Assembly (NCBI GenBank): GCA_018675975.1
Contig: JABGXB010000002.1
Span: forward strand, 192,098-256,097
Source: Candidatus Woesearchaeota archaeon
Lineage (GTDB): Archaea; Nanobdellota; Nanobdellia; Woesearchaeales; JABGXB01
Length of the DNA stretch: 64,000 nt
Direction of reading: 5' to 3'
Shown here piece by piece: positions 32,217 through 56,197 of the stretch. A program made the translations under genes and the position numbers. The notes beneath the pieces were generated by a model. It was given only the letters and a program-made list of their open reading frames with translations. It was not told the origin of the DNA and ran no database searches. How positions within the stretch are numbered: position 1 is the stretch's first letter; each line of letters opens with the position of its first letter.

Positions 32217-32768
32217 TCAATCAAAGACCCATTTTTTAATAAAATAAAAAAGCAAAAATAAAAATGTAATACTAGTAACATAATACATCACATAAGAATA
32301 ATTTTTTTGTTCAAGTAATACCATACCATAAAATAATGCAAGGGCTAAAAAAATCAATACAAAAATTTTTGCATAATTTGCATATGTACTACTAGTTATT
32401 TTTCTATTATTTAGCAAATAAGATAAAACTAATAATGCAACTCCAAACAAAATTGCAGTTTCAAATATACCACCTAAAAAATTAATTAAAAAAATACTTG
32501 GATTAACTACACCAGACAAAAAACCACTTTGATAATATAAATTATCATCTTTAAATGCAATTGAAGGCAATACAAATACTGTAACTAAAATTATAATTAA
32601 AGTCATTATATGACTTTTTTTAATATTTTTTAAACCAGGATATTTTTCATTAGAAATTAAATACATTATATATAAAATAATAAAAAATCCTAAACCAGTA
32701 AGTAAAATTAAGGCTAAAGTTTTATCTGCATTTAATAATGGATTAATTATATCTTCAAACCGTATCAT
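32217..32768 (-). CDS. Small polytopic membrane protein, paralog 1 of a tandem family of four
   Basis: Four predicted TM segments; shares the [YF]Q[ST]GFL[ST]GV[IV]NP loop motif with neighbours. Confidence 0.55.
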   Translation of the reverse strand: MIRFEDIINPLLNADKTLALILLTGLGFFIILYIMYLISNEKYPGLKNIKKSHIMTLIIILVTVFVLPSIAFKDDNLYYQSGFLSGVVNPSIFLINFLGGIFETAILFGVALLVLSYLLNNRKITSSTYANYAKIFVLIFLALALFYGMVLLEQKNYSYVMYYVTSITFLFLLFYFIKKWVFD

Positions 32769-32770
32769 TA

Positions 32771-33379
32771 TTAATCAAAAAAAATATATTTAAATACATA
32801 ATATATTACAATCAATCCCAATATCGATCCAAATATATTTACAAATTCATTTATATTACCAACTATGTTTGTTGCTCTTAAAAATACTAGAACTACAAAT
32901 GCAACCATAAACCAACCAACTATTTCCCAAGTATTAAAACCCTTTACTTTTGTAGCATTTAAATCAAAATTAGTAGTTCCTTTAATTACAATTAATGAAA
33001 ATAATGCAATAATAACTGCAAGTGAAATTGCAGGAAGACTATTCATAACAACATGAACTGGATTTATTACACCAGTTAAAAAACCTTCAACAAATACACC
33101 CTTTCCATTAGTACTAAAAACAAAATTTGGAACAGTTCCAACTAATGCAATAATAACTGAAATTATAGTAGTAAAACGTCCGTAAGCTTTTTCTTTTTCT
33201 GCTTTATTTGTATCATTATCTTCAATTTTCCACAGTTTCATATTAGAAATTAAAACATAAGGAATTATGTAAAATAGGAAAAACGGAATAAAAAAATGAA
33301 GTAAACCCCATTCTTTTGTAAAATAACAAATCCACTCCTTATATAAAGAGTTTGAATCGCAAACTATATCATTTAACAT
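32771..33379 (-). CDS. Small polytopic membrane protein, paralog 2
   Basis: Same topology; motif FVEGFLTGVINPV; C-terminal ...IFFD. Confidence 0.55.
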   Translation of the reverse strand: MLNDIVCDSNSLYKEWICYFTKEWGLLHFFIPFFLFYIIPYVLISNMKLWKIEDNDTNKAEKEKAYGRFTTIISVIIALVGTVPNFVFSTNGKGVFVEGFLTGVINPVHVVMNSLPAISLAVIIALFSLIVIKGTTNFDLNATKVKGFNTWEIVGWFMVAFVVLVFLRATNIVGNINEFVNIFGSILGLIVIYYVFKYIFFD

Positions 33380-34047
33380 TAAACATTACCTCCAGGTGCG
33401 CCAGCAGGTGGAGTTGTTGCAGTTGGAGGTGTATTAGTTTCACCATCAAAAAACATTAAATAAAACATCCATCCAATAAATGCTAAAAATAAGATTCCAC
33501 CAATAAATTCTTGAGTTAAATATTTTGAACTATCTACAGTCTTTCCAATTACACTTGTATAAAAAATGTAAGTTAATGTTAATGCAATAAATCCAGCATA
33601 CCAAGGACTGTCCATTATAGTTTTAACAACATTATTATTATTACCAGAAGTTGCAGATTGTATTGCAATTAATGCTAAAACTGACATTATTAATACTAAA
33701 CTAACTTGAGGTAAAAATAAATAAACAACAGATACAACATCAGGAAAACCAGCTAAAAAACCAGTTTGAAATTCAACACTAGCTACAGTATTTGCATTAT
33801 TTCCCCAAATTACATGAGGGATAACTAATAATAATGCAAAACATAATGAAACTACTGTTCTAAACTTTTTTGCATTTTTACCACTAAGATCACCTTCAGT
33901 TACTTTTGGAATTTCAATAAAAGTAAGTAATGTATAAAATATAATATAAATTAAAAACAAAGGTATAAATAAATCGAATAAACCGTAATCGCCAATTAAA
34001 TCATTTCTTATAAAATTCTGTAAATTAAAATTTTCAAATCCTGCCAA
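33379..34047 (-). CDS. Small polytopic membrane protein, paralog 3, with Thr/Pro-rich C-terminal tail
   Basis: Same topology; motif EFQTGFLAGF; the GC-rich C-terminal tail TNTPPTATTPPAGAPGGNV is unusual for this genome. Confidence 0.55.
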   Translation of the reverse strand: MAGFENFNLQNFIRNDLIGDYGLFDLFIPLFLIYIIFYTLLTFIEIPKVTEGDLSGKNAKKFRTVVSLCFALLLVIPHVIWGNNANTVASVEFQTGFLAGFPDVVSVVYLFLPQVSLVLIMSVLALIAIQSATSGNNNNVVKTIMDSPWYAGFIALTLTYIFYTSVIGKTVDSSKYLTQEFIGGILFLAFIGWMFYLMFFDGETNTPPTATTPPAGAPGGNV

Positions 34048-34119
34048 ACCTTAAACCTCTTTTTTAATATATATATATTTCAGCAATATTGCTTTATAAA
34101 TGTTACCTTATCATTCAGT

Positions 34120-34692
34120 TTATTCTTTATCCCATGCACCATTCATCCATGCAACGGATGCAACTATTAATACAATTAAAATAATACCTGAAACTAAACC
34201 TGTTTGATATTGATAAAATAATTCATTCCAAATTATTGATAATACTGATGCTTGACCTTCTGCAGTTGAAATTGTAATTGCACCTAAGAATATTAATCCA
34301 ATAATAAAAAAAATTATCCAAATAATATATTTTGCACGATTATCTTTATATTTACCATGTTCATCTAATTCAAAATCAAACCAAGTTGATTCTTTTGAAA
34401 ATATACCGGCAGTCATCATGAATGCAATACCAGCAATTACTAATAATATTGTTTTTGCTAAAACTTCTTCTAAAATTCCAACTAAACTTGCACTTGCAAT
34501 AACAAAAAAACCAATACAAAATGCAACAATTGCATTTAGATTATCTTTTTTTTCACCAAGTACAGAAGTCTTTTCTAAAATTGCAAATGTAATTGCAAAT
34601 ACGATTAAGAACGGAAGAACTACATTGAAAAATCCTAAACCATCTAAAAAACTAATTACTTGACCAAAAGCAGTTGGAGCAACGTCTACCAT
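34120..34692 (-). CDS. Small polytopic membrane protein, divergent paralog 4
   Basis: Similar hydrophobicity pattern; YQYQTGLVSGII motif shifted towards the C-terminus. Confidence 0.5.
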   Translation of the reverse strand: MVDVAPTAFGQVISFLDGLGFFNVVLPFLIVFAITFAILEKTSVLGEKKDNLNAIVAFCIGFFVIASASLVGILEEVLAKTILLVIAGIAFMMTAGIFSKESTWFDFELDEHGKYKDNRAKYIIWIIFFIIGLIFLGAITISTAEGQASVLSIIWNELFYQYQTGLVSGIILIVLIVASVAWMNGAWDKE

Positions 34693-35309: not shown

Positions 35310-36176
35310 ATGAAAGAAAACATTAAAGTTGCAATATATACCTTATTATCTATATTATTTTTTAGTATTACATCTTATTTAATTCCATATAAGTTTTCAA
35401 GTTATATTAATCCATTAATTGACACTAATTTATTGATTAGAATATTTTTAATATTCTTTTTTTCAATTTCAATTATAATATTTATTAAAGTAAATAAAAA
35501 ATATAATAGTATAATTAAATTAAATATTAAAGAAGCAACATTATTAATGCAATTTTATAAAATATTTTGTAATTTAGAATATAAAATAAGAGTTAATGCC
35601 AAAGCATTAATTGATAATTATATAATTAAAATTTTAACATTTAAAGCAAATAATTTAGATGCTTTTTTGTATGATGAAATGGATGGTTTTTATAATTTTT
35701 TATATAAAATAAAACCAAAAAATAATACTGAATTAAAATATATGGATAATGGACTTCAAATAACTAGAGAAATTGAAGAAATGAAAAATAATTATATTTT
35801 TTTAAATAATAATAAAATGAATTCTTTTGAAAAAATATTTTTATATTCAACTGGTATATTGTCAATAATTTTAATTAATTTACTTTTGTCATTAAATTTT
35901 GAAATTATTATATTTAAAGTTATGACATCAACTGTAATATTATATATTATGTGGTATTTGAATAGTTTAGATAATTTGACAATAAATACTAATTTATTTA
36001 AATTTGAAATATATGAAAAAGTTTTAGAACAATTAAGTTTATTGAGATATTATCCTGAACATTATGAAAATGAATATCAAATACCAAAAGAAATTAAAAA
36101 ATATAGACTTGGTACTTTAAATTTAGAAACAAAAGAAATTACAATTAAGCAAATCGAATCTGAAGAAAATGCTTAA
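35310..36176 (+). CDS. Membrane protein of unknown function, operonic with trm1
   Basis: Several hydrophobic segments; 8-nt overlap with the trm1 start. Confidence 0.45.
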   Translation: MKENIKVAIYTLLSILFFSITSYLIPYKFSSYINPLIDTNLLIRIFLIFFFSISIIIFIKVNKKYNSIIKLNIKEATLLMQFYKIFCNLEYKIRVNAKALIDNYIIKILTFKANNLDAFLYDEMDGFYNFLYKIKPKNNTELKYMDNGLQITREIEEMKNNYIFLNNNKMNSFEKIFLYSTGILSIILINLLLSLNFEIIIFKVMTSTVILYIMWYLNSLDNLTINTNLFKFEIYEKVLEQLSLLRYYPEHYENEYQIPKEIKKYRLGTLNLETKEITIKQIESEENA

Positions 36177-39652: not shown

Positions 39653-40153
39653 ATGGAAGAAATAAATGAATTATATCAAAAAATAAAAGAATCTGATGAA
39701 TATAAAGAATTAGTGCAAAATAATCTATACCTAACAAATATATTTATTATGTTAGATGATAGCAATAATTTAATCGATAGAATACAATTTGGATTTTATA
39801 ATAAAGAAAAAGATAAAATAATAACCTTATCAATTCATGAAAATAAAATAATTAAAAGTCTAGAACAAGAAATTGCAAAAAAATCTGATCAAAAATTAGA
39901 AGAATTAAATATTGAAAATTTAAATATAAATTTGAATGAAATTGAAGAAATGTGTGTAAAAGAAATAAAAAAAATAAATGATAAAATTAAAATTAATAGA
40001 AAAATGTTCTTAATTCAAAATCAAGAAAAACCAATATTTCTAAATACATTTTTGGCTGAAGATGGAAATATATTTTCATTAAAAATTGATATTAGTACAA
40101 AAGAAATGTTAGAATTTAAAAAATTTAATGTAAAAGATTTAATTAATAATTAA
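39653..40153 (+). CDS. Hypothetical protein
   Basis: 166-aa ORF, no recognised motif. Confidence 0.45.
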   Translation: MEEINELYQKIKESDEYKELVQNNLYLTNIFIMLDDSNNLIDRIQFGFYNKEKDKIITLSIHENKIIKSLEQEIAKKSDQKLEELNIENLNINLNEIEEMCVKEIKKINDKIKINRKMFLIQNQEKPIFLNTFLAEDGNIFSLKIDISTKEMLEFKKFNVKDLINN

Positions 40154-40219
40154 GTCAAAAAACAAAAGGAAGCTTTATAAATCTAAAAACTCGAATTACA
40201 TTAGGGAAAAGAGGGTATT

Positions 40220-41863
40220 TTGGTAGTCAGAAATAGTTTTAATAGTGAAACTAGAAGTTTAGATAATAATATTAATGAAAGAGTTAAATTTCACTCTGAA
40301 AATATAAAAAAAGCACAAGAATACAAACAACATGTAATTGATAATTGGAATTCTATAGATCATAAAGTAAAAAATCCAAATGAATGGATAAATTATTACA
40401 ATAGTGTAATTTCTTCAAATCAACAAAAAATAAATAATTTAAAACCACAAAATAAAAAAAAACCGGTTTTTGTATTTACTCTCATAGTAGCAATATTATT
40501 TTTTTCATATTTTATTTTACCACAAAATCAATTAACAGGTTCATTAATTGGAGATGAAATTAATTCCCCACTAGAAAATCAAATTGAATTTGAAATTCTA
40601 AACCCTCAATCATATCCAATTACAGGTAGAACTTGGCAAGTTAATTTTAAAACAAAAGGAACTGCAGATTTATTTATTAAAGCATCAAATGGAACAACTT
40701 GGTCTAAAAACAATGAAACTGAGGATTTATTATTTTTAAAAATTCAATGTGGATCAGAAATATTACCATATGAATGGGTTGATGGTGGAATTTTAATTAA
40801 AAATTATTCTTGTAATCAAACAAGTCATGAAACAGTTAAAGTAATTACAGATGGTAAACATACAATAGAATTTAGGTTTGGTAATTTAATTGCATATGCA
40901 AATAATAATGCAACTAATGCCCCAGTAATACATGCAATTAACTTAACTACTTCATACAATAGTGGAGAAAATGGAACTAATGAAAATATAACAGTAAATA
41001 TTTTTTCAAATGATACTGAAGTGCCAGATAATGAAGTAAAAGATATTATTGACTGGAGATTGTCAGGAGAATCTATAGCAATTTTAAATATGCCATTCGA
41101 AGGAGAAAGTAATGTAACTTTTACTAAAGATTATGGTGATTATCAATCAAATGGAACAGTTAATGGTGCAACTAATCAAACTAATACTGGTTTTGATGGA
41201 CAAGGTGCTTATAGTTTTGATGGAATTGATGATTTTATTAATATAAGTGGATTCACAACAGAAAATGAAGTTGTAAGATCAATTGGCTTTTGGTTTAAGC
41301 CTACAGTCGATTATGATACAACAAAAGGATTTGTATCTTTAGTTAATGGAGATGATTATGAAATTGCAATAAATGCAGGAAAAATGTTTTTTAATTTCTC
41401 AGGCGATACTGTTTATTCAACAATTGATAATTGGACTTCAGGTAATTTTTTTCACATCATGACAACAGTTGATATTAATTTAAAATTATATGTAAATGCA
41501 ACATTAGATAATTCAACAAGTGTTACACCTGCATATATAATTCAAAACGATACAAGTTCAAATGTAGCATTATTTTATAGCAGCGGTGATATTGTTCTTT
41601 CAGGATCCTGCTTTACAAACTCATGTGGAGATCCAGGAGTTTCACCATTTATTATACAAAATGCTACAAGTCATAATACAAGTTTTGTAAATCAAACAGG
41701 AGGATTTTGTATTACTGACAATAATTGTAATGATCAAGACTTATCTTGTGGTTCACCTAATGATGGATCATTTTTAATAAAAGATGAAGTTGGAACAATT
41801 GTATCATATATTGATGCAAATGGAACTTTATGCCTAACGGGAAATTTAGTACAAAATAATTGA
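40220..41863 (+). CDS. Type II membrane-anchored surface protein with LamG/concanavalin-like jelly-roll domain and many N-glycosylation sequons
   Basis: About 80-aa cytoplasmic N-terminus, one TM helix (PVFVFTLIVAILFFSYFIL), then LamG-like motifs (AYSFDGIDDFINISGF, SIGFWFKP, NWTSGNFFHIMTTVD, LKLYVNATLDNS) and dense N-x-S/T sites. Confidence 0.6.
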   Translation: MVVRNSFNSETRSLDNNINERVKFHSENIKKAQEYKQHVIDNWNSIDHKVKNPNEWINYYNSVISSNQQKINNLKPQNKKKPVFVFTLIVAILFFSYFILPQNQLTGSLIGDEINSPLENQIEFEILNPQSYPITGRTWQVNFKTKGTADLFIKASNGTTWSKNNETEDLLFLKIQCGSEILPYEWVDGGILIKNYSCNQTSHETVKVITDGKHTIEFRFGNLIAYANNNATNAPVIHAINLTTSYNSGENGTNENITVNIFSNDTEVPDNEVKDIIDWRLSGESIAILNMPFEGESNVTFTKDYGDYQSNGTVNGATNQTNTGFDGQGAYSFDGIDDFINISGFTTENEVVRSIGFWFKPTVDYDTTKGFVSLVNGDDYEIAINAGKMFFNFSGDTVYSTIDNWTSGNFFHIMTTVDINLKLYVNATLDNSTSVTPAYIIQNDTSSNVALFYSSGDIVLSGSCFTNSCGDPGVSPFIIQNATSHNTSFVNQTGGFCITDNNCNDQDLSCGSPNDGSFLIKDEVGTIVSYIDANGTLCLTGNLVQNN

Positions 41864-41872
41864 GGTTAAAAA

Positions 41873-43039
41873 ATGAATCAAAAAATAAAAATAACAAAAT
41901 TAGCATATTTAATTTTTGTATTTATTATTGTGAATACAATCATAATTAGTGCTGCGAATGTTATTGTAAAAAATGGAGAAATTACAGCAAATGATTTAGT
42001 AATTGATACAAGTACTGTATCAGTAGATCCAACAAATAATAGAGTTGGAATAGGAACGACCTCAGCTCAAACAACATTAGAAGTAGCAGATACTAGTTGG
42101 AGTAGTGGCGCACCTTATGGAAATATTTTACAAATTGCAGGTAAAGAAACATTTTTTAATGACAATTGGGGACATTTACTAATTACAGATTCAAATTCAA
42201 GTACCGGTAATGGTGGTATGATTAGTTTTGGTATCGGAAGAACAATAGGGGTTGATGTTGCACCATTTGCAACAATAAAATCATCGTATGATGGATCAAA
42301 TAATGGTTCATTAATTTTTATGACTAGAGGTGCAGGTGTAAATGTAACTGAAAGAATGAGAATTAATAGTGCCGGAGAAATAGGTATCGGCCTTACAGCA
42401 GCTACAAGTAATGCATTAGAAATTGGTGGAAATGGACAGGGTGGTGCAATAGGTGGCGGTTATGCCACAGTAATTAGAGGTTTAACTGCAATAGACGTTA
42501 ATTCAGGTTCAACAGCATTAACTGTTGAACAAGCAAATGTGGGAAATATTGCAACATTTAATGATGCAGGAACCCCTAAAGTAGTAATTTTAGATGGTGG
42601 TAATGTTGGAATTAATACAAGTGCACCAAGTGAATTTTTAGAAATAAATGGAAGATTAAAAGTTAATTTACTTGCAGCTGCAACTGCAAATACACTATGT
42701 TATAATAATACAGGAGTATTAAGTTCATGTACTTCATCCATAAAATATAAAGAAGATGTTCAAAATTTAACTAATGGATTAAATCATTTAAATCAAATGA
42801 GATCTGTTAATTATAAATGGAAAGGAAGAGACGAAAGAGATATTGGTTTTATTGCAGAAGAAATGAATGAAATTGATCCAATTTATGTAACACTAGATAA
42901 AAATGGAGATGTACAAGGTGTTAAATATAATTTATTAACTGCAGTACTCGCAAAAGCAATTCAAGAACAACAAAAACAAATAAATCAATTAAAAGAAATT
43001 GTTTGTTTAGATCACCCAGAACAAGAAATATGTAATTAA
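41873..43039 (+). CDS. Tail-fibre-like surface protein with C-terminal intramolecular chaperone auto-processing domain (Peptidase S74-like)
   Basis: N-terminal signal or anchor; fibre-type repeats (NRVGIGTTSAQTTLEV, GNVGINTSAPSEFLEINGRLKV); C-terminal SSIKYKEDVQNL...DIGFIAEEMNEIDPIYV...GVKYNLLTAVLAKAIQEQQKQINQLKE with a Ser-Lys dyad typical of endosialidase/tail-spike chaperone domains. Confidence 0.6.
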   Translation: MNQKIKITKLAYLIFVFIIVNTIIISAANVIVKNGEITANDLVIDTSTVSVDPTNNRVGIGTTSAQTTLEVADTSWSSGAPYGNILQIAGKETFFNDNWGHLLITDSNSSTGNGGMISFGIGRTIGVDVAPFATIKSSYDGSNNGSLIFMTRGAGVNVTERMRINSAGEIGIGLTAATSNALEIGGNGQGGAIGGGYATVIRGLTAIDVNSGSTALTVEQANVGNIATFNDAGTPKVVILDGGNVGINTSAPSEFLEINGRLKVNLLAAATANTLCYNNTGVLSSCTSSIKYKEDVQNLTNGLNHLNQMRSVNYKWKGRDERDIGFIAEEMNEIDPIYVTLDKNGDVQGVKYNLLTAVLAKAIQEQQKQINQLKEIVCLDHPEQEICN

Positions 43040-43047
43040 AAAAAACA

Positions 43048-43746
43048 ATGAACTATAAAAAAATATTAGGATTTAGTATTTTAATTATATTATTTTTAAC
43101 TCCAAGTATAAATTCATTATTAGTTGGAGGAACAAGTGAAGGATATTATAATGGAATACTTGATGATTTAACCATATTTAATAGAGAATTATTTCCAGAT
43201 CAAATAACTTATTTTTTTAATAATCAAACAAATATATTAGCAAATGATCAAACATTAACAGGACAAAGTTGGAGTGCATGTGCAACACCAAATGATGGTT
43301 TTGTTGATGGTAATCAAAATTGTACAATAAGTATGACAATCCTTGGAATTACAACAGTACTTCAAATGGGAATCGCTAATGCAGATGTAACTTTTGTTGT
43401 AACACATACACAAAATACCAATTCCTCTCCTATGGTTTTATCTAATCAAGGGACAGCAGATATAGATGTAACATTATGTGCCAATGCGCCTCTTTTCCCG
43501 ACCATTGGCCTTAATACATCTAATTTTCAAGCAAATGTAATAACACCGGCAGGAGTTACAGTAAATTCAATTAATGCCAACCATAATTTATTAAATTGTA
43601 CAACACCAGTTCAAATCATTAATAATTTGAGTGCAGGAGTAGGACAATTAATTAATGTTACATTTTATGTATTTGGAAATAAAAGTGAATCTGCAGGAGT
43701 TTACAATACAAGTGTTTTATTCATGGCATCAGCTGCAGCAGGATAA
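43048..43746 (+). CDS. Secreted N-glycosylation-sequon-rich protein beginning with a LamG-closing-strand-like motif
   Basis: Signal peptide; GGTSEGYYNGILDDLTIFNRELFPDQI; at least nine N-x-S/T sites. Confidence 0.5.
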   Translation: MNYKKILGFSILIILFLTPSINSLLVGGTSEGYYNGILDDLTIFNRELFPDQITYFFNNQTNILANDQTLTGQSWSACATPNDGFVDGNQNCTISMTILGITTVLQMGIANADVTFVVTHTQNTNSSPMVLSNQGTADIDVTLCANAPLFPTIGLNTSNFQANVITPAGVTVNSINANHNLLNCTTPVQIINNLSAGVGQLINVTFYVFGNKSESAGVYNTSVLFMASAAAG

Positions 43747-44733
43747 TTATTTTAATTTATCTATAATTTTTTCTTTAAAAAATATACCATCACGATTAAA
43801 TGTAAAATGAAATATATCTGGCTCAATTTCATATTTTATAATTAAATTTTTTTCAAAATTATTTTTTAATAATCCATCACCTAAAAAATAAAATGTTCTC
43901 ATTTTAAAATATTGTTCTAAAAATAATATTTTTTTTTGAATTGATTTTTCACTAAATTGCATTTTTAAACTATTATAAAAATTAACAGCAGAATTAGCAA
44001 CAGCAACATCCATTAAAGGATCGAGTGTAAAAGGTAGTGTATAAAATCTTTTATTTATTATTTGAATTTTTTTATTTTTTAAAGAATGAAAATTTAATAG
44101 AGGATATTTTTTATATTCAAATAAAGATAATAATATTTTTCTCAATGAAGGAATGGATTTAAATAACATCATAAAATAACTTAAAAATAATAGTCTACGC
44201 CTAAATTTAATTAATTTTTTTTCTGTAGGAGTTAAAATAAAAATGTGATTGATCATTTTTTTTAATTTGAGTATAATATCTACATTATTATTTTTCCTGG
44301 CATTAATTAATATATTATATAAAGAATTTATTATTAAATTGGAACCAAAACAATTTGATATAATATGAAAATTATTAATATTTTGATCTTTTAAAATTAA
44401 CATTAACTTATTCCAAAAGTCTTTTGAATAATTTTTTTGATTATTTGAATTTTTATTAAAACTCATTCCAAAGCCCGGCAAATCTAAATAAATTATATTA
44501 TAATCTTTTCTGAATTCGTCTAAAAAATGTGGAGAATCACTTATATTTCCACCTATGCCATTAAATTTAATAAATAATTTTTTTTTTTTGTTATTAATAG
44601 GCCCATTATAAAAAATAGTTGATTTATTGGAAAAAACAAACATAATATATTCAGTTTTATATTTAACTTTTTCAAATTCCCAATATTGACCAAGTTTATA
44701 TAATTTATAAAATATTTTTTTTACAATTCTCAT
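43747..44733 (-). CDS. Alpha/beta-hydrolase-fold-like protein (putative, Cys in the nucleophile-elbow position)
   Basis: FIKFNGIGGN, YLDLPGFGMS and HIISNCFGS resemble HGxGG / DLPGxGxS / GxSxG regions; weak. Confidence 0.4.
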   Translation of the reverse strand: MRIVKKIFYKLYKLGQYWEFEKVKYKTEYIMFVFSNKSTIFYNGPINNKKKKLFIKFNGIGGNISDSPHFLDEFRKDYNIIYLDLPGFGMSFNKNSNNQKNYSKDFWNKLMLILKDQNINNFHIISNCFGSNLIINSLYNILINARKNNNVDIILKLKKMINHIFILTPTEKKLIKFRRRLLFLSYFMMLFKSIPSLRKILLSLFEYKKYPLLNFHSLKNKKIQIINKRFYTLPFTLDPLMDVAVANSAVNFYNSLKMQFSEKSIQKKILFLEQYFKMRTFYFLGDGLLKNNFEKNLIIKYEIEPDIFHFTFNRDGIFFKEKIIDKLK

Positions 44734-45827
44734 TTTTTATTTTTTTTAATAATATCAGTTATTATTTTATTAATTAAAATTAAACTCGTTTGAACTTCAT
44801 AAGTATTATTTGCTTTTAATTTTTTTTCATAGAATTCAATTTTATTTAAAAATAAATTAAATTGTTTTTTATTTATAGATTTAGAAAAAAAACCAAGATT
44901 ATTTTTATTTAAATAATAAGAATTTAATAATTGTTCATATTGATTTTTTACAGGCACAGACATTATTGCCTTATTTAAAAAAATAGCTTCACTAATTAAA
45001 CTAAATCCACCATTTGTAATAATAGCCTTACTAGTAGCTAAATCATTAAAAAATTCAGTTTCATTAAATGATTTAAATTTGATTTTTTTATCTTCAAAAA
45101 TATTTAAACGCTTAATATTTCTTCTATCATTTTTATCCATACCATACACTATAAAATTATGATCTAATAATTTTAATTTTTTAATTAAATTTGGATAAGT
45201 ATTTGACGTTTGATAAACTAAAATATGATTTTTTTTAATTATTTGTCTGTTTTTTAATTTTTTTTTTAATTCAATTAATTTATCTCTAACAATTGGATTA
45301 ATTAATATTGTTTTTTTATTATGTTTTATATCACAAAAAGATAAGATAACATTTAATTCATTATTTGAAACAAAAAATTTTGTATAAATATTTAATTTAA
45401 ACCATTCATAAAAATTTAATTTTTTAATTTTGGCTTTTACACCAAAATGATTATTATCAATAGTAATAAAATTGATTCCTAAAAAGGTTTTAATTAATTT
45501 AGGCCAAATGGAAAAATCTGAAATAATTAAATCTGGCTTTTCTTTTTTAATATAATATTTTAATTTTTTAAATATTTTAAAAATAGAATATAATTTTTTT
45601 AAATTATATAGAATTGTTTTTTTTAAGTTAATTTTATCCTTGATATAAATTAATTCAAAATCTATAACTTTTTTTGCATTAGAAAAATGAGTTTTTAGAA
45701 TTTTAAATGATCTATTTGAACTAAATGGAATTATATTATGATGTTTTTTTAAATAATTAATTATAGGAATTGATCTAGTTGCATGACCCAATCCTTCACC
45801 TGTTACAAAATAAAATATTTTTGCCAT
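44730..45827 (-). CDS. GT-B glycosyltransferase (MJ1255-like / GT1-GT28-like)
   Basis: N-terminal FYFVTGEGLGHATRSIPI and C-terminal NGGFSLISEAIFLNKAIMSVP...EQLLN donor-binding region; 4-nt overlap with the upstream gene. Confidence 0.7.
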   Translation of the reverse strand: MAKIFYFVTGEGLGHATRSIPIINYLKKHHNIIPFSSNRSFKILKTHFSNAKKVIDFELIYIKDKINLKKTILYNLKKLYSIFKIFKKLKYYIKKEKPDLIISDFSIWPKLIKTFLGINFITIDNNHFGVKAKIKKLNFYEWFKLNIYTKFFVSNNELNVILSFCDIKHNKKTILINPIVRDKLIELKKKLKNRQIIKKNHILVYQTSNTYPNLIKKLKLLDHNFIVYGMDKNDRRNIKRLNIFEDKKIKFKSFNETEFFNDLATSKAIITNGGFSLISEAIFLNKAIMSVPVKNQYEQLLNSYYLNKNNLGFFSKSINKKQFNLFLNKIEFYEKKLKANNTYEVQTSLILINKIITDIIKKNKK

Positions 45828-49838: not shown

Positions 49839-50669
49839 ATGAAAGAAAAAAATAAAATTATTGTATTTCAAGATAAAAATATTAGAAAAATGTGGCATAA
49901 TGACGAATGGTACTTTTCTGTTGTAGATATTATTTCCGTCTTAACTGACAGCCCCACTCCAAGACAATATTGGGGTAAAATCAAAGATAGAGAATTTAAA
50001 GCTTTTGAGTTGTCCCCAATTTGGGTACAACTGAAATTAATATCTCAAGATAGTAAATCTTACTCAACTGATTGTATAAATACAAAAAATGCATTTAGAC
50101 TCATTCAGTCCGTTCCCTCAAAAAAAGCCGAACCCTTTAAACAATGGTTGGCACAAGTAGGACATGAAAGAATAGAAGAAATTGAAAATCCTGAACTAGG
50201 ACAAAATAGAGTAAAAGAATATTATAAACTCAAAGGTTATCCAAAAGAATGGATTGATAAAAGACTGAGAGGAATTTCAATTAGACAAGAATTAACAGAT
50301 GAATGGAAAAATAAAAACATCAAAACACAAAATGAGTTTGCAATTTTAACTAATGAAATATCAAAAGCAAGTTTTGGAAAAACAATTAGTGAATATAAAA
50401 AATTTAAAAATATTAAAAATAACAAACAAAATTTAAGAGATCACATGACAGATTGGGAATTAATTTTAAATATGATAGGAGAAAAAGCAACTACAGATAT
50501 TACAAAATAAATTGATTCTCAAGGATTGGAAGAATGTAAAGACTCAGCCAATAAAGGTGGTAATATTGCAAAAAGAACAAGAAAGGATTTAGAAAAAAAC
50601 ATTGGAAAACAAATAGTTTCAAAAGAAAACTTTTTACCAAAACAAAAAAATAAAAAAAAGCTAAATTAA
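49839..50669 (+). pseudogene. DinD/RhuM-family (Bro-N domain) DNA-damage-inducible-like gene interrupted by an in-frame TAA at 50508-50510
   Basis: N-terminal Bro-N-like region (VFQDKNIRKMWHNDEWYFSVVDIISVL). The 52 codons after the in-frame stop encode ...GGNIAKRTRKDLEKNIGKQIVSKENFL, which matches the conserved family C-terminus as recalled from memory, so the first stop is not the native end. GC content is visibly above the local background. Confidence 0.5.
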
Positions 50670-53247: not shown

Positions 53248-54720
53248 TCAATTTATTTGATTTTTATCTAAAGATCTAATTTCACTCTTAAAAAATTCTT
53301 CTAAAAATATAGAAATAGATGAAAATTTGCTTAAAAGCTCAAAATAAGGCCTATTTAGGTTTTTAACAGATTTATCTACATCTAATATAGCCAAACCTAT
53401 TTTGTTTTCATTTATAGCAATATTTTGATTATGTTGAAGTTTTAATTTAGTTTCCATATCTCTAATAAATTTACTTATTCTTAACATATCTTCACTAGCA
53501 GGAATTTTTCTATTTAATATAAAATGAAAATTATTAATTATTAAACTTGCAATTACTTTAGTAGTTTTACTTGATTTGAATATTTTGTTATAATCAGGTT
53601 CCCCTTGTCTATCATAAGCATGTTTTAATATCAATAGTAAATCTAAATAACCAGAACCTTTTGTTTCAGTTCTAAATGGAATATCAATAACTTTAACTGA
53701 TAAAGGCTTTAATTTTTCTAAAAAAATTTTATCATGATCCCTCATTGCTTCATTAAAAAGATTTTCAAACGCCACATTATTAGGCTTAGCCATATATAAT
53801 TTTTGATAATTCATTTCCATTAATTTGTAATATCTTAACATTAAATCCAAATAAATTAAAAAATATACATTTTGATCTAATCTATGTGCACGAATTAATT
53901 TTACAGCAGAAGGCATAACACTCAATGAATTCCACATTCTGCCTAAAATAGTACTTTCAACATTATAACCCTCATGTCTAATTTCAGCATGAAGTTTTTT
54001 TAAATAAATATTTATTTTTCTATCAAATTCAATTGAATCTTTAATTTTATCTAAATTATCTTTAAATAAATTTAAACCAGAATTTAAATTTTCAACTAAT
54101 TGAAAATTAATTTTTGCTCTATCTTTGATATTATTATTATTTGAATTAGAAAATTTAACTATTTGCAAATTATATTCTTCAATTAATTTAGATAAGATAT
54201 AAATTTCTTTTTCTAATTGAATCATATTTAATTCACATTTATTAAATTCGATGTTAATTTCTGTTACTATGTTATTACCACGTGCTATAATGTCTTTATT
54301 TAAATCTTTTTTAATAAAATTTTGATTAGATTCAAAACTGTTTCCAGGAGCAAAATGTTCTGTTAGAAATTCAATTTCTTCTGAATCAATTATTAATATT
54401 GCTTTTGATACGGAATCCAAAATTTCACCAATTTTATTTAATACAAAAAAAATTGAATAAATTTGTTTTGAAAAATTATTTCTTGGCGTACTAATTACTC
54501 CACGATTTTGATCTAAAACATCACCAGATAATTTACTCATTGAAAAATCCATTTTATTTTCTGAATGTAAATATCTTGAAATTTGATCAGATTGTGATCT
54601 TAAAATAACTCCTAATTTTTTTAATTCAGAATCATTTTCTTCAAAATTTTTATTAACAATATGTTGAGTTGAACTAACATCACTTGAAATTTCACTTAAA
54701 TCCATATTTATAAAATGCAT
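53248..54720 (-). CDS. Large hypothetical protein (490 aa)
   Basis: Long ORF with normal composition, no recognised motif. Confidence 0.5.
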   Translation of the reverse strand: MHFINMDLSEISSDVSSTQHIVNKNFEENDSELKKLGVILRSQSDQISRYLHSENKMDFSMSKLSGDVLDQNRGVISTPRNNFSKQIYSIFFVLNKIGEILDSVSKAILIIDSEEIEFLTEHFAPGNSFESNQNFIKKDLNKDIIARGNNIVTEINIEFNKCELNMIQLEKEIYILSKLIEEYNLQIVKFSNSNNNNIKDRAKINFQLVENLNSGLNLFKDNLDKIKDSIEFDRKINIYLKKLHAEIRHEGYNVESTILGRMWNSLSVMPSAVKLIRAHRLDQNVYFLIYLDLMLRYYKLMEMNYQKLYMAKPNNVAFENLFNEAMRDHDKIFLEKLKPLSVKVIDIPFRTETKGSGYLDLLLILKHAYDRQGEPDYNKIFKSSKTTKVIASLIINNFHFILNRKIPASEDMLRISKFIRDMETKLKLQHNQNIAINENKIGLAILDVDKSVKNLNRPYFELLSKFSSISIFLEEFFKSEIRSLDKNQIN

Positions 54721-54736
54721 AATCTGATTTATAAAA

Positions 54737-56197
54737 TTAGCTATCTAATTTTGAAATTAATGACCTCATAACATTAAAATCAAGTCCAATTTGTTCAAAT
54801 TTTGTTGCATGTTTTGAATCAGCTCTTAACATTTCTAAACTTAAATTTGAAACATACCATAAAAATGTTTTTTCTTGTTTACAAAAATCTAATTCACTAT
54901 TTAATATAAAATTAGTATAATCCTTTAAATCAAATTCAAAACCCTTATGCTCAAAATATCTTTTTGAATATTTAAAATAATTTGAAAATATAAACATTTG
55001 ATAATTATAAAAATCATTAAATTGCATTTTTCTAAAATTATCATCACTATAATGTTGCATAAATTCACTTGCACCTTGTTTATAATTTTCAATTGATAAA
55101 AATCGACCTAATGGGGATTTCATTAATTTTTCTTTTAATTTTTTTGAATCAAAATTTTCATTTATATAATCATCTAAATAATCTATAAAATTAGAATCAG
55201 AATTATCTTTACCTTGAATATTCATAATGAATTTTGATAAATCTTTATCACAACCAGATATAATATTTTCATATAACATATTTAATTCAGTTTGAGATTC
55301 AAATTTAAAAAAAGAATTTAAATAATTTTCATTATCAATAATTAAAAATCTAAGTGCATTTAAAAAAATTTCAAATCTCATCTCTTTTTCATTTAAATCG
55401 TTTGGCAAAATCCATTCAAAATTGGTTTTTGAATCAAATAAAAAATTCAATCTATAATTAATTGCAGATGCGCTATATTTGTATAATTTTTCAACTCTTG
55501 ATTTTGATAAAATTGAAAGTGAAGATAATTCATAAATTTGTTTTAAATCTCCACTAACTGAATTATTTTGATTACCTTTAAAAATTGAAAATGATTGTTC
55601 TAAATTATTTTTATCTAATACAAGTGGACGCTCATATAATTTTGAACCAGTTTCAATTGTATATCTAATTATTTTTTCTGCATAACTTTGATATGGTTTT
55701 GAAAAAAAAATATATTGATTTGAATTTTTAAGTGTAGGAGAAAAATTAATATCATATTCCCTTGAAAATAATAAACTAAAATAAATATCCATTTCTTTTT
55801 TTAATTGCTTTAATAATAATTTATTATTTTCAAAATAATCACTATTTAATTCAATATTAATATCAATATCACTTTCGCCCATAGCAATGCCGTTAATAAT
55901 TTCACATAAATCATATTCATTTTTTGATTGTTGAATAGAACCAAAAAAATAAATTGAACTAATATTGGATTTAAATTCATCTAATGAATTAGATGATATT
56001 CGTTTAATGGAAGTTACATAATCCTTAAAGTCAATAGAAGGATTTTGTGATTTAATAAAAATTAAATTATTATCTAAAGAATCACCTAAAGAAAAAAATA
56101 AGTCTAATGCTTTTTTTGTTTGCACTTCATAAAAATTACTTATATTTATTTTTTCTGATGATAAATCACTAGATAAATTAATTTGAGGAAATTCCAT
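54737..56197 (-). CDS. Large hypothetical protein (486 aa) with a possible nucleotidyltransferase-like GS...SDIDINIE segment
   Basis: YFFGSIQQSK...GESDIDINIEL loosely resembles the pol-beta-superfamily hG[GS]x(n)Dh[DE]h motif, but the spacing is atypical. Confidence 0.45.
   Translation of the reverse strand: MEFPQINLSSDLSSEKINISNFYEVQTKKALDLFFSLGDSLDNNLIFIKSQNPSIDFKDYVTSIKRISSNSLDEFKSNISSIYFFGSIQQSKNEYDLCEIINGIAMGESDIDINIELNSDYFENNKLLLKQLKKEMDIYFSLLFSREYDINFSPTLKNSNQYIFFSKPYQSYAEKIIRYTIETGSKLYERPLVLDKNNLEQSFSIFKGNQNNSVSGDLKQIYELSSLSILSKSRVEKLYKYSASAINYRLNFLFDSKTNFEWILPNDLNEKEMRFEIFLNALRFLIIDNENYLNSFFKFESQTELNMLYENIISGCDKDLSKFIMNIQGKDNSDSNFIDYLDDYINENFDSKKLKEKLMKSPLGRFLSIENYKQGASEFMQHYSDDNFRKMQFNDFYNYQMFIFSNYFKYSKRYFEHKGFEFDLKDYTNFILNSELDFCKQEKTFLWYVSNLSLEMLRADSKHATKFEQIGLDFNVMRSLISKLDS

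What the first reader, a model, noticed from the sequence alone, without database searches (positions are those of the whole stretch)
40220..45827. Surface-glycoprotein and tail-fibre-like gene cluster with dedicated glycosyltransferase: candidate undescribed cell-surface or attachment module
Three consecutive + strand genes encode exported proteins dense in N-x-S/T sequons. The first is a type II anchored protein with a LamG/concanavalin-like jelly-roll. The second has tail-fibre-like repeats and a C-terminal intramolecular chaperone auto-processing domain. The third starts, after its signal peptide, with what looks like the closing strand of a LamG domain. They converge on an operon of an alpha/beta-hydrolase-like protein and a GT-B glycosyltransferase. 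No capsid, terminase, portal or integrase gene is present, so this is not a prophage. It reads as a cellular adhesin or fibre system assembled from phage-fibre parts. In a small-genome, possibly episymbiotic archaeon it is a plausible host-attachment apparatus (inference).
Basis: partly seen in the sequence, partly recalled or inferred. Interest (0 to 1): 0.78.

Follow-up and report, generated by a model that had tools for sequence, protein, structure and literature searches.

The report
Split surface adhesin flanking a fibre gene
In a tiny marine archaeon, one cell-surface sugar-binding (LamG) module is encoded in two exactly complementary pieces on either side of a phage-tail-fibre-like gene, which suggests, but does not prove, a surface attachment complex assembled from separately exported parts.

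Summary
Genes at 40220-41863 (g1), 41873-43039 (g2) and 43048-43746 (g3) encode exported proteins in the chromosome of a marine Candidatus Woesearchaeota archaeon. They lie between housekeeping genes, and the window contains no viral structural genes.

g2 is a tail-fibre-like protein with a Peptidase_S74 self-cleaving chaperone domain. Its Ser288/Lys293 pair is conserved, and its closest solved relatives are the Bdellovibrio MAT surface fibres.

The main new finding is that g1 and g3 are two halves of a single repeat unit of the DPANN LamG-repeat adhesin family. Against a 300-position profile of that unit, g1 covers positions 1-223 (E 1e-41) and g3 covers 223-300 (E 3e-27).

The 1.56 kb between the halves carries three things: the family's usual C-terminal cap, fused to g1; the fibre gene; and a new signal peptide for g3.

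- Codon composition is fully host-like.
- Both halves are as well conserved as intact units.
- One other protein shares g3's unusual start.

These points favour a functional split, possibly reassembled by strand complementation. That step is inferred, not shown.

The "dedicated" glycosyltransferase rests on adjacency alone. No syntenic relatives were found. I rate it a new variant of known kinds, of moderate interest.

The parts
40220..41863 (+). g1, 547 aa: membrane-anchored N-terminal half of the split adhesin (N-terminal region, TM, N-proximal domain, LamG unit positions 1-223, family C-terminal cap)
   Evidence: ORF. TM at residues 80-103. Identical gene call in 8 places. Sequon excess z 3.5.
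40457..40528 (+). g1 transmembrane segment (residues 80-103), preceded by KKKP
   Evidence: Kyte-Doolittle window score 2.57. The topology is an inference.
40529..40921 (+). g1 N-proximal beta-rich domain (residues 104-234), shared with giant LamG-repeat proteins
   Evidence: phmmer E 3.7e-36 to P0153 and 1.4e-35 to P0143, matching their N-proximal regions.
40922..41554 (+). LamG-repeat unit, first part: profile positions 1-223 (g1 residues 235-445)
   Evidence: Local 300-position unit HMM built from 822 unit instances gives E 9.8e-42. Pfam LamG_3 positions 20-115. BLASTP to P0126 residues 9-219, E 1e-26. Score lies at the 18th percentile of intact units.
41555..41863 (+). g1 tail (residues 446-547): three roughly 30-aa Cys-containing repeats, the usual C-terminal cap of the LamG-repeat family, here joined at unit position 223 instead of after position 300
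   Evidence: phmmer to the extreme C-termini of P0149 (E 4.9e-12), P0210 (8.7e-8) and P0231 (4.6e-6). In P0149, P0210 and P0231 the cap follows a unit that runs to profile position 300; P0207 (E 0.008) has the cap at its extreme C-terminus too, but no unit adjoins it. No match to unit positions 224-300.
41873..43039 (+). g2, 388 aa: exported tail-fibre-like protein with a C-terminal S74 intramolecular chaperone
   Evidence: PF13884 at 44.2 bits. PHROG tail-fibre families to E 2.4e-18. AlphaFold2 mean pLDDT 74.7. Foldseek hits to Bdellovibrio MAT fibres, MyRF ICA and the K1F chaperone.
41885..41974 (+). g2 N-terminal hydrophobic segment (residues 5-34; signal peptide or anchor, possible SAA/N cleavage site), absent from the phage homologues
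   Evidence: Hydropathy. Alignment A3 shows phage homologues starting MALTK... with no hydrophobic segment.
42734..43039 (+). g2 S74 domain (residues 288-388), with predicted self-cleavage before Ser288 (motif S288-S-I-K-Y-K293); a Cys276-Cys286 loop would become the distal tip
   Evidence: S288 and K293 are invariant in 16 sequences and at least 90% conserved in 120. pLDDT 92-97. 56% identity to the S74 part of a secreted bacterial protein in L010. Cysteine positions.
43048..43746 (+). g3, 232 aa: secreted C-terminal half of the split adhesin
   Evidence: ORF. Hydrophobic residues 5-29. 950 hits in the exhaustive search, mostly to repeats in giant proteins. Sequon excess z 2.1.
43048..43110 (+). 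g3 signal peptide (residues 1-21, ...TPSINS/LLVGG)
   Evidence: Hydropathy. The cleavage site is inferred. The same SP-then-L-x-V-G-G junction occurs in P0252.
43111..43341 (+). LamG-repeat unit, second part: profile positions 223-300 (g3 residues 22-98), comprising the two closing strands, a helix and the C-x-TPNDG linker
   Evidence: Unit HMM E 2.9e-27. BLASTP to P0126 residues 244-308, E 9e-17. Pfam LamG_3 positions 118-150. Score lies at the 22nd percentile of intact units.
43342..43746 (+). g3 C-terminal domain (residues 99-232), beta-rich, sequon-rich, function unknown
   Evidence: Only one weak relative, P0277 (E 1.6e-4). No Pfam, PHROG or NCBIfam hit.
43747..44733 (-). g4, 328 aa: weak alpha/beta-hydrolase-like protein. 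A neighbour; its functional link to g1-g3 is unproven
   Evidence: Abhydrolase_1 at 17.2 bits, below the 25.8 cut-off. EstV lipase E 3.7e-6, far below its cut-off. Its stop codon abuts the g3 stop.
44730..45827 (-). g5, 365 aa: GT-B glycosyltransferase of the MurG/MJ1255 type with a G10-E-G-L-G-H15 loop. A neighbour; its functional link to g1-g3 is unproven
   Evidence: PF13528 at 207.5 bits. TIGR00661 at 146.4 bits, below the 195.9 cut-off. Motif read from the translation and compared with PMC8993221.
39653..40153 (+). g0, 166 aa: upstream same-strand ORF with no TM, no sequons and no family hit. Its membership of the module is unknown

Best explanation
This is a long-resident chromosomal three-gene surface operon of a marine Woesearchaeota (DPANN) archaeon.

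Shown:
- g1 and g3 are the two exactly complementary halves of one repeat unit of the LamG-repeat adhesin family. That family forms giant surface proteins in DPANN-like organisms.
- The unit is interrupted at profile position 223, just before the two closing beta-strands of the LamG sandwich, by about 1.56 kb (41555-43110).
- That DNA supplies, in order: the family's normal C-terminal cap in frame with g1, a stop codon, a complete fibre gene (g2), and a start codon plus signal peptide in frame with the rest of the unit (g3).
- g2 is a phage-derived fibre. It has gained an N-terminal export or anchor segment and keeps an intact S74 Ser-Lys site.

Inferred:
- All three products are exported from one transcript; the gaps between genes are 9 and 8 nt.
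- g1 and g3 are N-glycosylated.
- g2 trimerises with the help of its C-terminal chaperone and then cuts it off before Ser288, exposing a Cys-loop tip, as in phage and Bdellovibrio MAT fibres.
- The membrane-anchored g1 holds the otherwise unanchored g3, because g3's N-terminal two strands insert into g1's open LamG sandwich (beta-strand complementation in trans).
- Together they form a glycan-binding attachment complex used for contact with a host cell.

The neighbouring glycosyltransferase operon may contribute to glycan synthesis, but nothing ties it specifically to these proteins.
For: Complementarity of the halves:
- Unit HMM: g1 residues 235-445 cover positions 1-223 (E 1e-41), and g3 residues 22-98 cover 223-300 (E 3e-27). 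There is no gap or overlap.
- Pfam LamG_3 independently gives positions 20-115 in g1 and 118-150 in g3.
- BLASTP to the single-unit protein P0126 gives residues 9-219 for g1 and 244-308 for g3.

Family context:
- The g1 tail is the family's C-terminal cap, which in three of the four capped relatives follows a unit that runs to profile position 300.
- The g1 N-domain is the family's N-proximal domain.

Signs of function rather than decay:
- GC3 of every piece is 0.05-0.15, against 0.092 +/- 0.018 for the genome, so none is a recent arrival.
- Both halves score within the normal range of intact units, at the 18th and 22nd percentiles, although they were not in the training set.
- All ORFs are intact and identical across independent assemblies.
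- Both halves are routed outside the cell and carry a sequon excess.
- All 11 family members with a clear signal peptide in the 60 rows printed (proteins whose first unit starts earliest) start the unit at position 1-3. Only P0252, from another AT-rich organism, shares g3's 'signal peptide then position 224' start, at 46% identity.
- P0149 carries a 551-aa insertion inside one unit at positions 230-239, so this loop region tolerates interruption.

g2:
- PF13884 scores above its cut-off, and S288/K293 are conserved.
- The structural model is confident over the S74 domain.
- Foldseek probability is 0.96-1.0 to Bdellovibrio MAT fibres and the MyRF ICA domain, and phmmer to 8OND gives E 1.6e-5.
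- Phage homologues lack the hydrophobic N-terminus.

Chromosomal context.
Against: - No structural or experimental evidence shows that g1 and g3 associate. The only model of g1 failed (mean pLDDT 35.5), and complexes could not be modelled.
- The g1 tail begins with beta-strand-like sequence (NVALFYSSGDIVLSG). It might close the sandwich in cis, which would leave g3's N-terminus vestigial.
- No population variation exists to measure selection; contigs are 99.97-100% identical.
- No syntenic relative was found in 65 related genomes or in a metagenome scan.
- The one protein sharing g3's start (P0252) sits on an 872-bp, low-coverage contig. It has an in-frame stop and no S74 gene within the 360 nt upstream.
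- g2 shows no sequon excess.
- How g2 would be attached to the cell, or to g1/g3, is unknown.
Confidence: 0.5

Rival explanations
1. Evolutionary scar. An ancestral LamG adhesin gene was broken by a rearrangement or insertion that brought in the cap, the fibre gene and a leader. g1 and g3 are now independent or functionless leftovers that do not reassemble. Only g2, and perhaps g1 as a truncated adhesin, still matter.
For: - Split and degraded genes are common in reduced DPANN genomes (PMC6349945).
- g1's Pfam LamG score falls below the gathering cut-off.
- The g3 C-domain is almost an orphan.
- No relatives with the same arrangement were found.
Against: - Both halves keep family-typical conservation, at the 18th and 22nd percentiles of intact units, despite full codon amelioration that implies long residence.
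- g3 has a proper leader that ends exactly at the strand boundary, and P0252 has the same.
- There are no frameshifts or stops in any of 8 places.
- The sequon excess is retained in both halves.
Confidence: 0.27
2. g1 closes its own LamG fold in cis. The first strands of its tail (residues 446-465) replace the missing closing strands. g3 is then a separate secreted lectin-like protein whose N-terminal LamG fragment is vestigial or serves as a flexible linker.
For: - The tail begins with two beta-like stretches (VALFY, DIVLSG).
- The hmmsearch envelope for g1 extends to residue 464, beyond the aligned end at 445.
- MAFFT aligned some tail residues to the closing region of homologues.
Against: - hmmalign places none of the tail on positions 224-300.
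- In three of the four capped relatives the same tail is a separate module after a unit that runs to profile position 300 and a Cys-rich linker, not part of the LamG fold.
- g3's closing strands keep the core consensus (Y-N-G-x-L-D-D-L-x-I-F-N-R-x-L), which is unexpected for a vestige.
Confidence: 0.18
3. Remnant of an integrated virus or of a phage-tail-like injection system (eCIS). On this view g2, and perhaps g1 and g3, are virion or particle receptor-binding proteins rather than cellular surface proteins.
For: - g2's N-terminal domain is 40-50% identical to fibres on viral contigs.
- One homologue, P0017, sits in a clear phage tail and lysis module.
- A Bro-N gene with a strong PHROG hit lies 6 kb downstream.
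- eCIS fibres can carry S74 domains (PMC12923769).
Against: - No capsid, portal, terminase, integrase, sheath, tube or baseplate gene was found among the window ORFs scanned. Immediate flanks are Trm1, HisRS, a Bud32-type kinase, IleRS and Tmk.
- GC3 is the same as the genome's.
- g2 has an export or anchor segment that phage fibres lack.
- g1 and g3 belong to a cellular adhesin family.
- No flanking repeats were found, and the nearest tRNA is 11 kb away.
Confidence: 0.05

Closest known systems
Bdellovibrio bacteriovorus MAT (mosaic adhesive trimer) fibres, S74 subgroup (e.g. Bd3182; PMC10769870)
   Same: - A cellular, non-phage, exported fibre with phage-fibre ancestry.
- A C-terminal S74 chaperone-protease with the S-x4-K motif.
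- Best sequence and structure matches in the PDB: 8OND at E 1.6e-5, and 8OND, 8ONC and 8OML at Foldseek probability 0.96-1.0.
- Made by a small organism that lives by attaching to other cells.
   Different: - g2 is far shorter: 388 aa against about 1,000 aa.
- It is archaeal.
- Its N-terminal domain resembles marine phage fibres. It was not shown to match the conserved roughly 130-aa MAT N-domain.
- It is encoded inside a split LamG adhesin gene, which has no MAT counterpart.
Phage tail fibres and spikes with a C-terminal intramolecular chaperone (K1F endosialidase 3GW6, T5 pb1 4UW7/4UW8, S16 gp37 6F45)
   Same: - PF13884 domain and a conserved Ser-Lys pair.
- VGIGT-type fibre repeats.
- PHROG tail-fibre families match to E 2e-18.
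   Different: - There is no virion to attach to.
- It has an N-terminal hydrophobic export segment.
- It lies in a chromosome with host-like codon usage.
LamG/concanavalin-like repeat adhesins of DPANN archaea (arCOG07813-type; noted in Undinarchaeota, PMC7414124) and the giant multi-unit proteins recovered here (up to 7,794 aa)
   Same: - g1 plus g3 contain the family's N-proximal domain, one complete 300-residue unit and the C-terminal cap.
- All match at E 1e-12 to 1e-41.
   Different: - Only one unit is present, and it is cut at position 223 into two genes.
- The cap is joined to the first half.
- The second half has its own signal peptide and an unrelated C-domain.
- An unrelated gene sits between the halves.
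Split protein genes of Nanoarchaeota and other DPANN (reverse gyrase, AlaRS, Dph1/2; PMC6349945)
   Same: One protein or domain is encoded as two genes whose products are thought to reassemble non-covalently, in a reduced DPANN genome.
   Different: - The known cases are cytoplasmic informational enzymes, usually split between domains.
- Here an extracellular beta-sandwich is split within the fold, each half has its own export signal, and another gene lies between them.
Non-covalent strand retention or donation in extracellular beta-sandwiches (GAIN/GPS and SEA autoproteolysis; donor-strand complementation in chaperone-usher pili). Cited from general knowledge, as an analogy only
   Same: A terminal beta-strand supplied by a separate polypeptide completes a sandwich and holds two chains together at the cell surface.
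   Different: - In those systems the strand is separated by proteolysis, or the subunit is built with a missing strand.
- Here the separation is at gene level, and complementation is untested.

Membership tests
Peptidase_S74 / intramolecular chaperone domain | Profile match above the curated cut-off | tested here: met
   PF13884 at 44.2 bits against a cut-off of 22, residues 288-336.
Peptidase_S74 / intramolecular chaperone domain | Catalytic Ser and Lys in an S-x-x-x-x-K motif at the start of the domain | tested here: met
   The motif is S288-S-I-K-Y-K293. Both residues are invariant in 16 sequences and at least 90% conserved in 120.
Peptidase_S74 / intramolecular chaperone domain | Fold like solved chaperone domains | tested here: met
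   pLDDT is 92-97 over residues 290-380. Foldseek gives 7DC3 MyRF ICA at probability 1.0 and TMt 0.56, and 3GW6 at probability 0.91. Whole-chain TM-scores are low because a monomer model is being compared with intertwined trimers.
Peptidase_S74 / intramolecular chaperone domain | Trimerisation-dependent self-cleavage | not testable with these tools
   Needs expression of wild type against S288A.
Bdellovibrio-type MAT fibre | Signal peptide and surface display | tested here: inconclusive
   Hydrophobic segment at residues 5-34 with a possible SAA/N cleavage site. No signal-peptide predictor or experiment was available.
Bdellovibrio-type MAT fibre | Conserved roughly 130-aa beta-rich N-terminal domain after the signal peptide | not tested
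   No MAT N-domain sequence or structure was available for comparison. g2 residues 45-176 instead match marine phage fibres at 40-50% identity.
Bdellovibrio-type MAT fibre | Trimeric beta-helix shaft with capping-loop motif V-G-G/N-pi-x-x-P-x-x-x-L | tested here: inconclusive
   g2 has three related motifs (VGIGTTSAQTTLEV, IGIGLTAATSNALEI, VGINTSAPSEFLEI), but only one has the Pro, and it is shifted by one position. Foldseek probability to Bd3182, Bd2133 and Bd1334 shafts is 0.96-1.0.
LamG / concanavalin A-like domain (Pfam Laminin_G_3) | Profile match above the curated cut-off within one protein | tested here: not met
   g1 scores 26.1 bits and g3 16.2 bits against a cut-off of 27.6. Each gene holds only part of the domain.
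LamG / concanavalin A-like domain (Pfam Laminin_G_3) | A complete set of strands, including the two closing strands | tested here: met
   Met only for g1 and g3 together. Pfam positions 20-115 plus 118-150, and unit HMM positions 1-223 plus 223-300.
DPANN LamG-repeat adhesin family (defined here by a 300-position unit profile built from 822 instances) | Unit, N-proximal domain and C-terminal cap all present | tested here: met
   Unit at E 1e-41 and 3e-27. N-domain at E 4e-36 and cap at E 5e-12.
DPANN LamG-repeat adhesin family (defined here by a 300-position unit profile built from 822 instances) | Usual architecture: signal peptide, then units starting at position 1, with the cap after a complete unit, all in one polypeptide | tested here: not met
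   All 11 relatives with a clear signal peptide in the 60 rows printed start the unit at position 1-3, whereas g3 starts at 223. In P0149, P0210 and P0231 the cap follows a unit that runs to profile position 300, whereas in g1 it follows 223.
Integrated virus / prophage | Capsid, portal, terminase or integrase genes nearby; atypical composition; attachment-site repeats | tested here: not met
   None appears in the Pfam or PHROG scans, which covered 44 and 15 of the window's 57 ORFs of at least 100 aa. GC3 equals the genome's. No meaningful flanking repeats were found.
Extracellular contractile injection system (eCIS) | Sheath, tube and baseplate genes next to the fibre | tested here: not met
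   No such families appear among the window ORFs that were scanned.
MJ1255/VC2487 glycosyltransferase family (g5) | NCBIfam TIGR00661 score above its cut-off | tested here: not met
   146.4 bits against a cut-off of 195.9. The broader Pfam PF13528 is met at 207.5 bits against 25.
MurG / Alg14-13 / Agl24-type lipid-linked-sugar glycosyltransferases (g5) | N-terminal Gly-rich loop ending in a conserved His (GGxGGH / GGH) | tested here: met
   The loop is G10-E-G-L-G-H15 in the translation. The motif is described in PMC8993221. The MurG profile hit is only E 1.8e-6, far below its cut-off, so this is a resemblance and not membership.
Alpha/beta hydrolase (g4) | Profile match above the cut-off and a nucleophile elbow | tested here: not met
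   Abhydrolase_1 scores 17.2 bits against a cut-off of 25.8. The candidate elbow is S-N-C-F-G, with Cys rather than Ser.

The most novel reading that the evidence does not exclude
The split is functional. A LamG sandwich is encoded in two genes and rebuilt outside the cell. A secreted subunit (g3) donates the two closing strands to a membrane-anchored subunit (g1), so the cell tethers an exchangeable lectin or tip subunit by gene-level strand complementation. The co-encoded self-cleaving fibre (g2) would be part of the same attachment organelle. This would be a natural extracellular split-domain assembly in archaea, and a route by which giant DPANN adhesins become modular.
Probability: 0.3. 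Interest if true: 0.7.

Novelty: new variant of a known kind. Interest (0 to 1): 0.5.

Why it matters
How DPANN archaea recognise and hold on to host cells is largely unknown at the molecular level, and LamG-repeat proteins are the usual suspects.

This locus offers a small, tractable version of that system: one unit rather than dozens. It is paired with a Bdellovibrio-like self-processing fibre, which would extend cellular use of phage fibres from a predatory bacterium to a likely episymbiotic archaeon.

If the two LamG halves really do reassemble, it would be a natural example of an extracellular domain split at gene level and rebuilt by strand donation. It would also show how these adhesins can swap tips.

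If they do not, the locus is still a clean record of how a surface gene was rearranged around an acquired fibre gene.

Tried and rejected
1. AlphaFold2 of full-length g1 with the 8 available homologues failed (mean pLDDT 35.5). It could not tell whether the LamG in g1 is open or closed. Complexes and fused constructs could not be submitted.
2. A genome-contig scan with the g2 alignment found no confirmed relative.
3. An IleRS-anchored scan returned 65 genomes, the best at 66-68% identity. Local tblastn found no g0-g5 homologue near IleRS in any of them, so it gave no synteny information.
4. A metagenome scan with the g3/P0252 N-terminal alignment confirmed nothing.
5. A search for direct or inverted repeats bounding the 1.56-kb interruption returned only AT-rich chance matches. 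By eye, the two junctions share only weak similarity (TSSNVALFYSSGD against PSINSLLVGGTSE), too weak to call a target duplication.
6. Bacterial-type promoter and terminator scans were at background level and do not apply to archaea.
7. Recent horizontal transfer of g2 or of the tail was rejected because GC3 matches the genome. The higher overall GC of 41-44 kb comes from codon positions 1 and 2, that is, from amino-acid composition.
8. Population variants for a selection test do not exist. Contigs are 99.97-100% identical, and the cluster members differ by only 1-2 residues.
9. Hidden pseudogene fragments of the missing unit parts in other reading frames were not found.
10. A specific link between the glycosyltransferase operon and the three surface genes has no evidence beyond adjacency.

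Full report
**What is at the coordinates.** Six ORFs fill 39653-45827.
- g0: 39653-40153, + strand.
- g1: 40220-41863, + strand, 547 aa.
- g2: 41873-43039, + strand, 388 aa.
- g3: 43048-43746, + strand, 232 aa.
- g4: 43747-44733, - strand.
- g5: 44730-45827, - strand.

g1, g2 and g3 are separated by only 9 and 8 nt. The stop codons of g3 and g4 abut. g4 and g5 overlap by 4 nt.

**Organism and context.** The window has about 22% GC. The exact g2 protein is named by NCBI as 'tail fiber domain-containing protein [Candidatus Woesearchaeota archaeon]' and lies on a contig of up to 1.03 Mb. Eight places in JGI, ENA, Logan and NCBI assemblies show the same gene order. These include Saanich Inlet at 200 m and two GenBank MAGs. 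The seven with DNA available are 99.97-100% identical to the window.

The flanks are housekeeping genes: Trm1, HisRS and a Bud32/RIO-type kinase upstream, and IleRS, thymidylate kinase and D-Tyr-tRNA deacylase downstream. The other window ORFs with a family hit encode RNA polymerase subunits, a thermosome subunit, Elp3, SerRS, UvrC and similar proteins; several larger ORFs have no family hit at all.

**Checking the observation.**
- LamG: Pfam finds Laminin_G_3 in g1 at residues 354-445 (profile positions 20-115, 26.1 bits, just under the 27.6 cut-off). It also finds the last part of the same profile (positions 118-150) at residues 23-53 of g3.
- Fibre: g2 has Peptidase_S74 above its cut-off (44.2 against 22 bits) and hits tail-fibre PHROG families down to E 2e-18.
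- Neighbours: g5 is a clear GT-B enzyme (PF13528, E 4e-61). g4 is only weakly hydrolase-like.
- Export: hydropathy gives one segment in each of g1 (residues 80-103), g2 (5-34) and g3 (5-29), and none in g0, g4 or g5.
- Sequons: N-x-S/T sites exceed composition-matched shuffles in g1 (22 against 11.5, z 3.5) and g3 (9 against 5.0, z 2.1). These are the two highest densities of 57 ORFs. g2 shows no excess (6 against 6.0).

The description is therefore correct, apart from the sequon claim for g2 and the weak evidence for the hydrolase.

**The main finding: g1 and g3 are one LamG unit cut in two.** Word-indexed searches found few relatives of g1 and none of g3. An exhaustive HMMER search with g3 then found 950 proteins. 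Most are giant (up to 7,794 aa), and g3 residues about 22-140 match them up to 15 times per protein.

Reading the g1 homologues shows a repeating unit of about 300 residues:
- a small N-terminal part (…ENLT…DWR-NGSSIAVLNMPFEGGSN);
- a LamG domain;
- closing strands (F-N-G-T-I-D-E-V-R-I-Y-N-R-x-L-S);
- a C-x-TPNDG linker.

I built a profile of this unit from 822 instances in 156 proteins and searched the three proteins with it.
- g1 residues 235-445 cover positions 1-223 (E 9.8e-42).
- g3 residues 22-98 cover positions 223-300 (E 2.9e-27).
- g2 does not match.

The two halves meet at the same profile position, with no loss or overlap. hmmalign places none of the g1 tail on positions 224-300. 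BLASTP against the single-unit protein P0126 gives the same picture: residues 9-219 for g1 and 244-308 for g3. So does the Pfam profile. A six-frame search of the window finds no other copy and no hidden fragment.

**What lies between the halves.** The interruption spans 41555-43110 (1,556 nt).
- Its first 102 codons continue g1 as three Cys-containing repeats of about 30 residues. These are homologous to the extreme C-termini of family members P0149 (E 5e-12), P0210 (9e-8), P0231 (5e-6) and P0207. In the first three of these the cap follows a unit that runs to profile position 300 and a Cys-rich linker. So the tail is the family's normal C-terminal cap, here joined at position 223.
- g2 comes next.
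- The last 21 codons are the signal peptide of g3.

The g1 N-domain (residues 104-234) is also a family domain (E 4e-36 to P0153). g1 plus g3 therefore contain every standard part of a family member, rearranged around a foreign gene. Only the g3 C-terminal domain (residues 99-232) is nearly an orphan.

**Scar or working arrangement?** Several results argue against simple decay.
- GC3 of every piece (0.05-0.15) matches the genome (0.092 +/- 0.018). The rearrangement and the fibre gene are therefore old residents.
- Despite that age, sub-profiles for positions 1-223 and 224-300 score g1 and g3 at the 18th and 22nd percentiles of intact units. Those intact units, unlike g1 and g3, were in the training set.
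- Both halves are routed outside the cell and keep their sequon excess.
- All 11 relatives with a clear signal peptide in the 60 rows printed start the unit at position 1-3. Only P0252 shares g3's start. P0252 is from a different AT-rich organism and is 46% identical to g3. Its leader ends …SVYS/LTVGG, against …SINS/LLVGG in g3.
- P0149 carries a 551-residue insertion within one unit at positions 230-239, so this loop region tolerates interruption.

Together these favour a functional split in which g3's two N-terminal strands complete the sandwich of membrane-anchored g1. I could not test this. The g1 model failed (pLDDT 35.5) and complexes could not be submitted. P0252 sits on an 872-bp low-coverage contig with an in-frame stop and no S74 gene within 360 nt upstream. 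There is no sequence variation for a selection test. The alternative that g1's tail closes the fold in cis remains open.

**The fibre gene.** An alignment with 15 homologues shows S288 and K293 invariant, in the motif S-S-I-K-Y-K. Both are at least 90% conserved in 120 sequences.

The nearest full-length homologues are only 31-38% identical. They start MALTK… with no hydrophobic segment. One of them, P0017, lies in a marine phage tail and lysis module with several S74 fibres, a holin and an M15 peptidase. g2 residues 45-176 are 40-50% identical to fibres on IMG/VR contigs. The S74 part is closest (56%) to a secreted protein of a 55% GC bacterium that lies near RHS genes. g2 is thus a mosaic fibre of phage ancestry that has gained an export or anchor segment.

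With a 120-sequence alignment, AlphaFold2 gives mean pLDDT 74.7, and 92-97 over the S74 domain. The best Foldseek matches are:
- the Bdellovibrio MAT fibres Bd2133, Bd3182 and Bd1334 (probability 0.96-1.0);
- the MyRF ICA domain (probability 1.0, TMt 0.56);
- the K1F intramolecular chaperone (probability 0.91).

phmmer also finds 8OND (E 1.6e-5) and phage S16 gp37. The MAT paper (PMC10769870) describes what g2 resembles: cellular fibres with a signal peptide and a trimeric beta-helix. Thirteen of the 21 MAT proteins also carry an SDxxxK S74 domain whose self-cleavage exposes the binding tip. After cleavage, g2 would end in a Cys276-Cys286 loop.

**The glycosyltransferase operon.** g5 matches PF13528 strongly. 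It matches TIGR00661 (MJ1255/VC2487) below its cut-off and MurG weakly. It carries a G-E-G-L-G-H15 loop like the GGxGGH/GGH loop of MurG, Alg14 and Agl24, which act on lipid-linked sugars (PMC8993221). That fits general glycan assembly at least as well as a dedicated role. None of the 65 related genomes anchored on IleRS has any of g0-g5 nearby. The association therefore rests on adjacency in one species.

**Not a prophage or injection system.** Pfam and PHROG scans of the flanking and other large ORFs find no virion, integrase, sheath or baseplate families. The only phage-associated gene is an isolated Bro-N protein at 49839-50510. No bounding repeats were found, and the only tRNA is 11 kb away.

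**Comparison with known systems and novelty.** Each component belongs to a known kind.
- LamG adhesins are already noted in DPANN (PMC7414124).
- S74 fibres occur in phages and in Bdellovibrio (PMC10769870).
- Split genes are known in DPANN, but the examples that review lists are informational-processing and translation-related enzymes (PMC6349945).

I found no paper containing both 'Peptidase_S74' and 'DPANN'. The papers containing 'Peptidase_S74' and 'archaeal' were judged from their titles and abstracts only, which concern phages and eCIS fibres. What appears new is the arrangement: one extracellular LamG unit split within the fold into two separately exported genes, with the family cap moved to the first half and a phage-derived, self-cleaving fibre gene between them. 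I rate it a new variant of known kinds. Interest is moderate (0.5) because the functional reading is plausible and testable but rests on one poorly sampled lineage.

Noticed in passing
window 49839-50510 (+): An isolated Bro-N domain protein (223 aa) sits between thymidylate kinase and D-Tyr-tRNA deacylase. It matches phrog_15286 over its full length (E 2e-74) and anti-repressor Ant families weakly. It is the only phage-associated gene seen in the window.
   Followed up: partly
protein P0149 (2571 aa), residues 1826-2376: A family member has one LamG unit interrupted within a single polypeptide at profile positions 230-239 by a 551-residue insertion. The closing strands then resume and the C-terminal cap follows. 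The inserted domain was not identified.
   Followed up: partly
L012 (ENA ERZ4201062, 872 bp), gene 360-836: P0252 is the only other protein found with 'signal peptide then unit position 224'. It ends at an in-frame TAA, after which the reading frame continues as ITVLNMP…, the normal next-unit sequence. This is either a sequencing error at 0.9x coverage or a pseudogene. The upstream 360 nt is low-complexity ATA-repeat DNA.
   Followed up: partly
window 43744-43749: The stop codons of the convergent genes g3 and g4 abut with no intergenic base. Neither transcript has room for a terminator outside the other gene.
   Followed up: no
loci L045, L046, L057-L068: The archaeal IleRS of this window is 43-51% identical to IleRS genes in many Patescibacteria (Saccharibacteria, Paceibacterota, Nomurabacteria and others) and 36-40% identical to genes in Wolbachia and Rickettsiales. 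This suggests archaeal-type IleRS has been transferred into those bacteria.
   Followed up: no
window 475-2970 (+), 53248-54720 (-), 54737-56197 (-), 17011-18105 (-): Large ORFs of 831, 490, 486 and 364 aa have no Pfam family at E <= 1e-4. The tandem 490 and 486 aa pair lies next to the thermosome gene.
   Followed up: no
window 14963-16978 (-): A 671-aa transglutaminase-like protein has the strongest sequon depletion in the window: 2 observed against 9.3 expected, z -2.8.
   Followed up: no
window 32217-34692 (-) and 35310-36176 (+): Five consecutive small-to-medium ORFs (183, 202, 222, 190 and 288 aa) just upstream of the cluster have no convincing Pfam, PHROG or NCBIfam match. The 288-aa protein looks multi-pass membrane by eye.
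   Followed up: partly
window 40220: g1 has no ATG before residue 291. All gene callers start it at a TTG, and one source writes the first residue as L. The true start, and so the length of the cytoplasmic tail, is uncertain.
   Followed up: no
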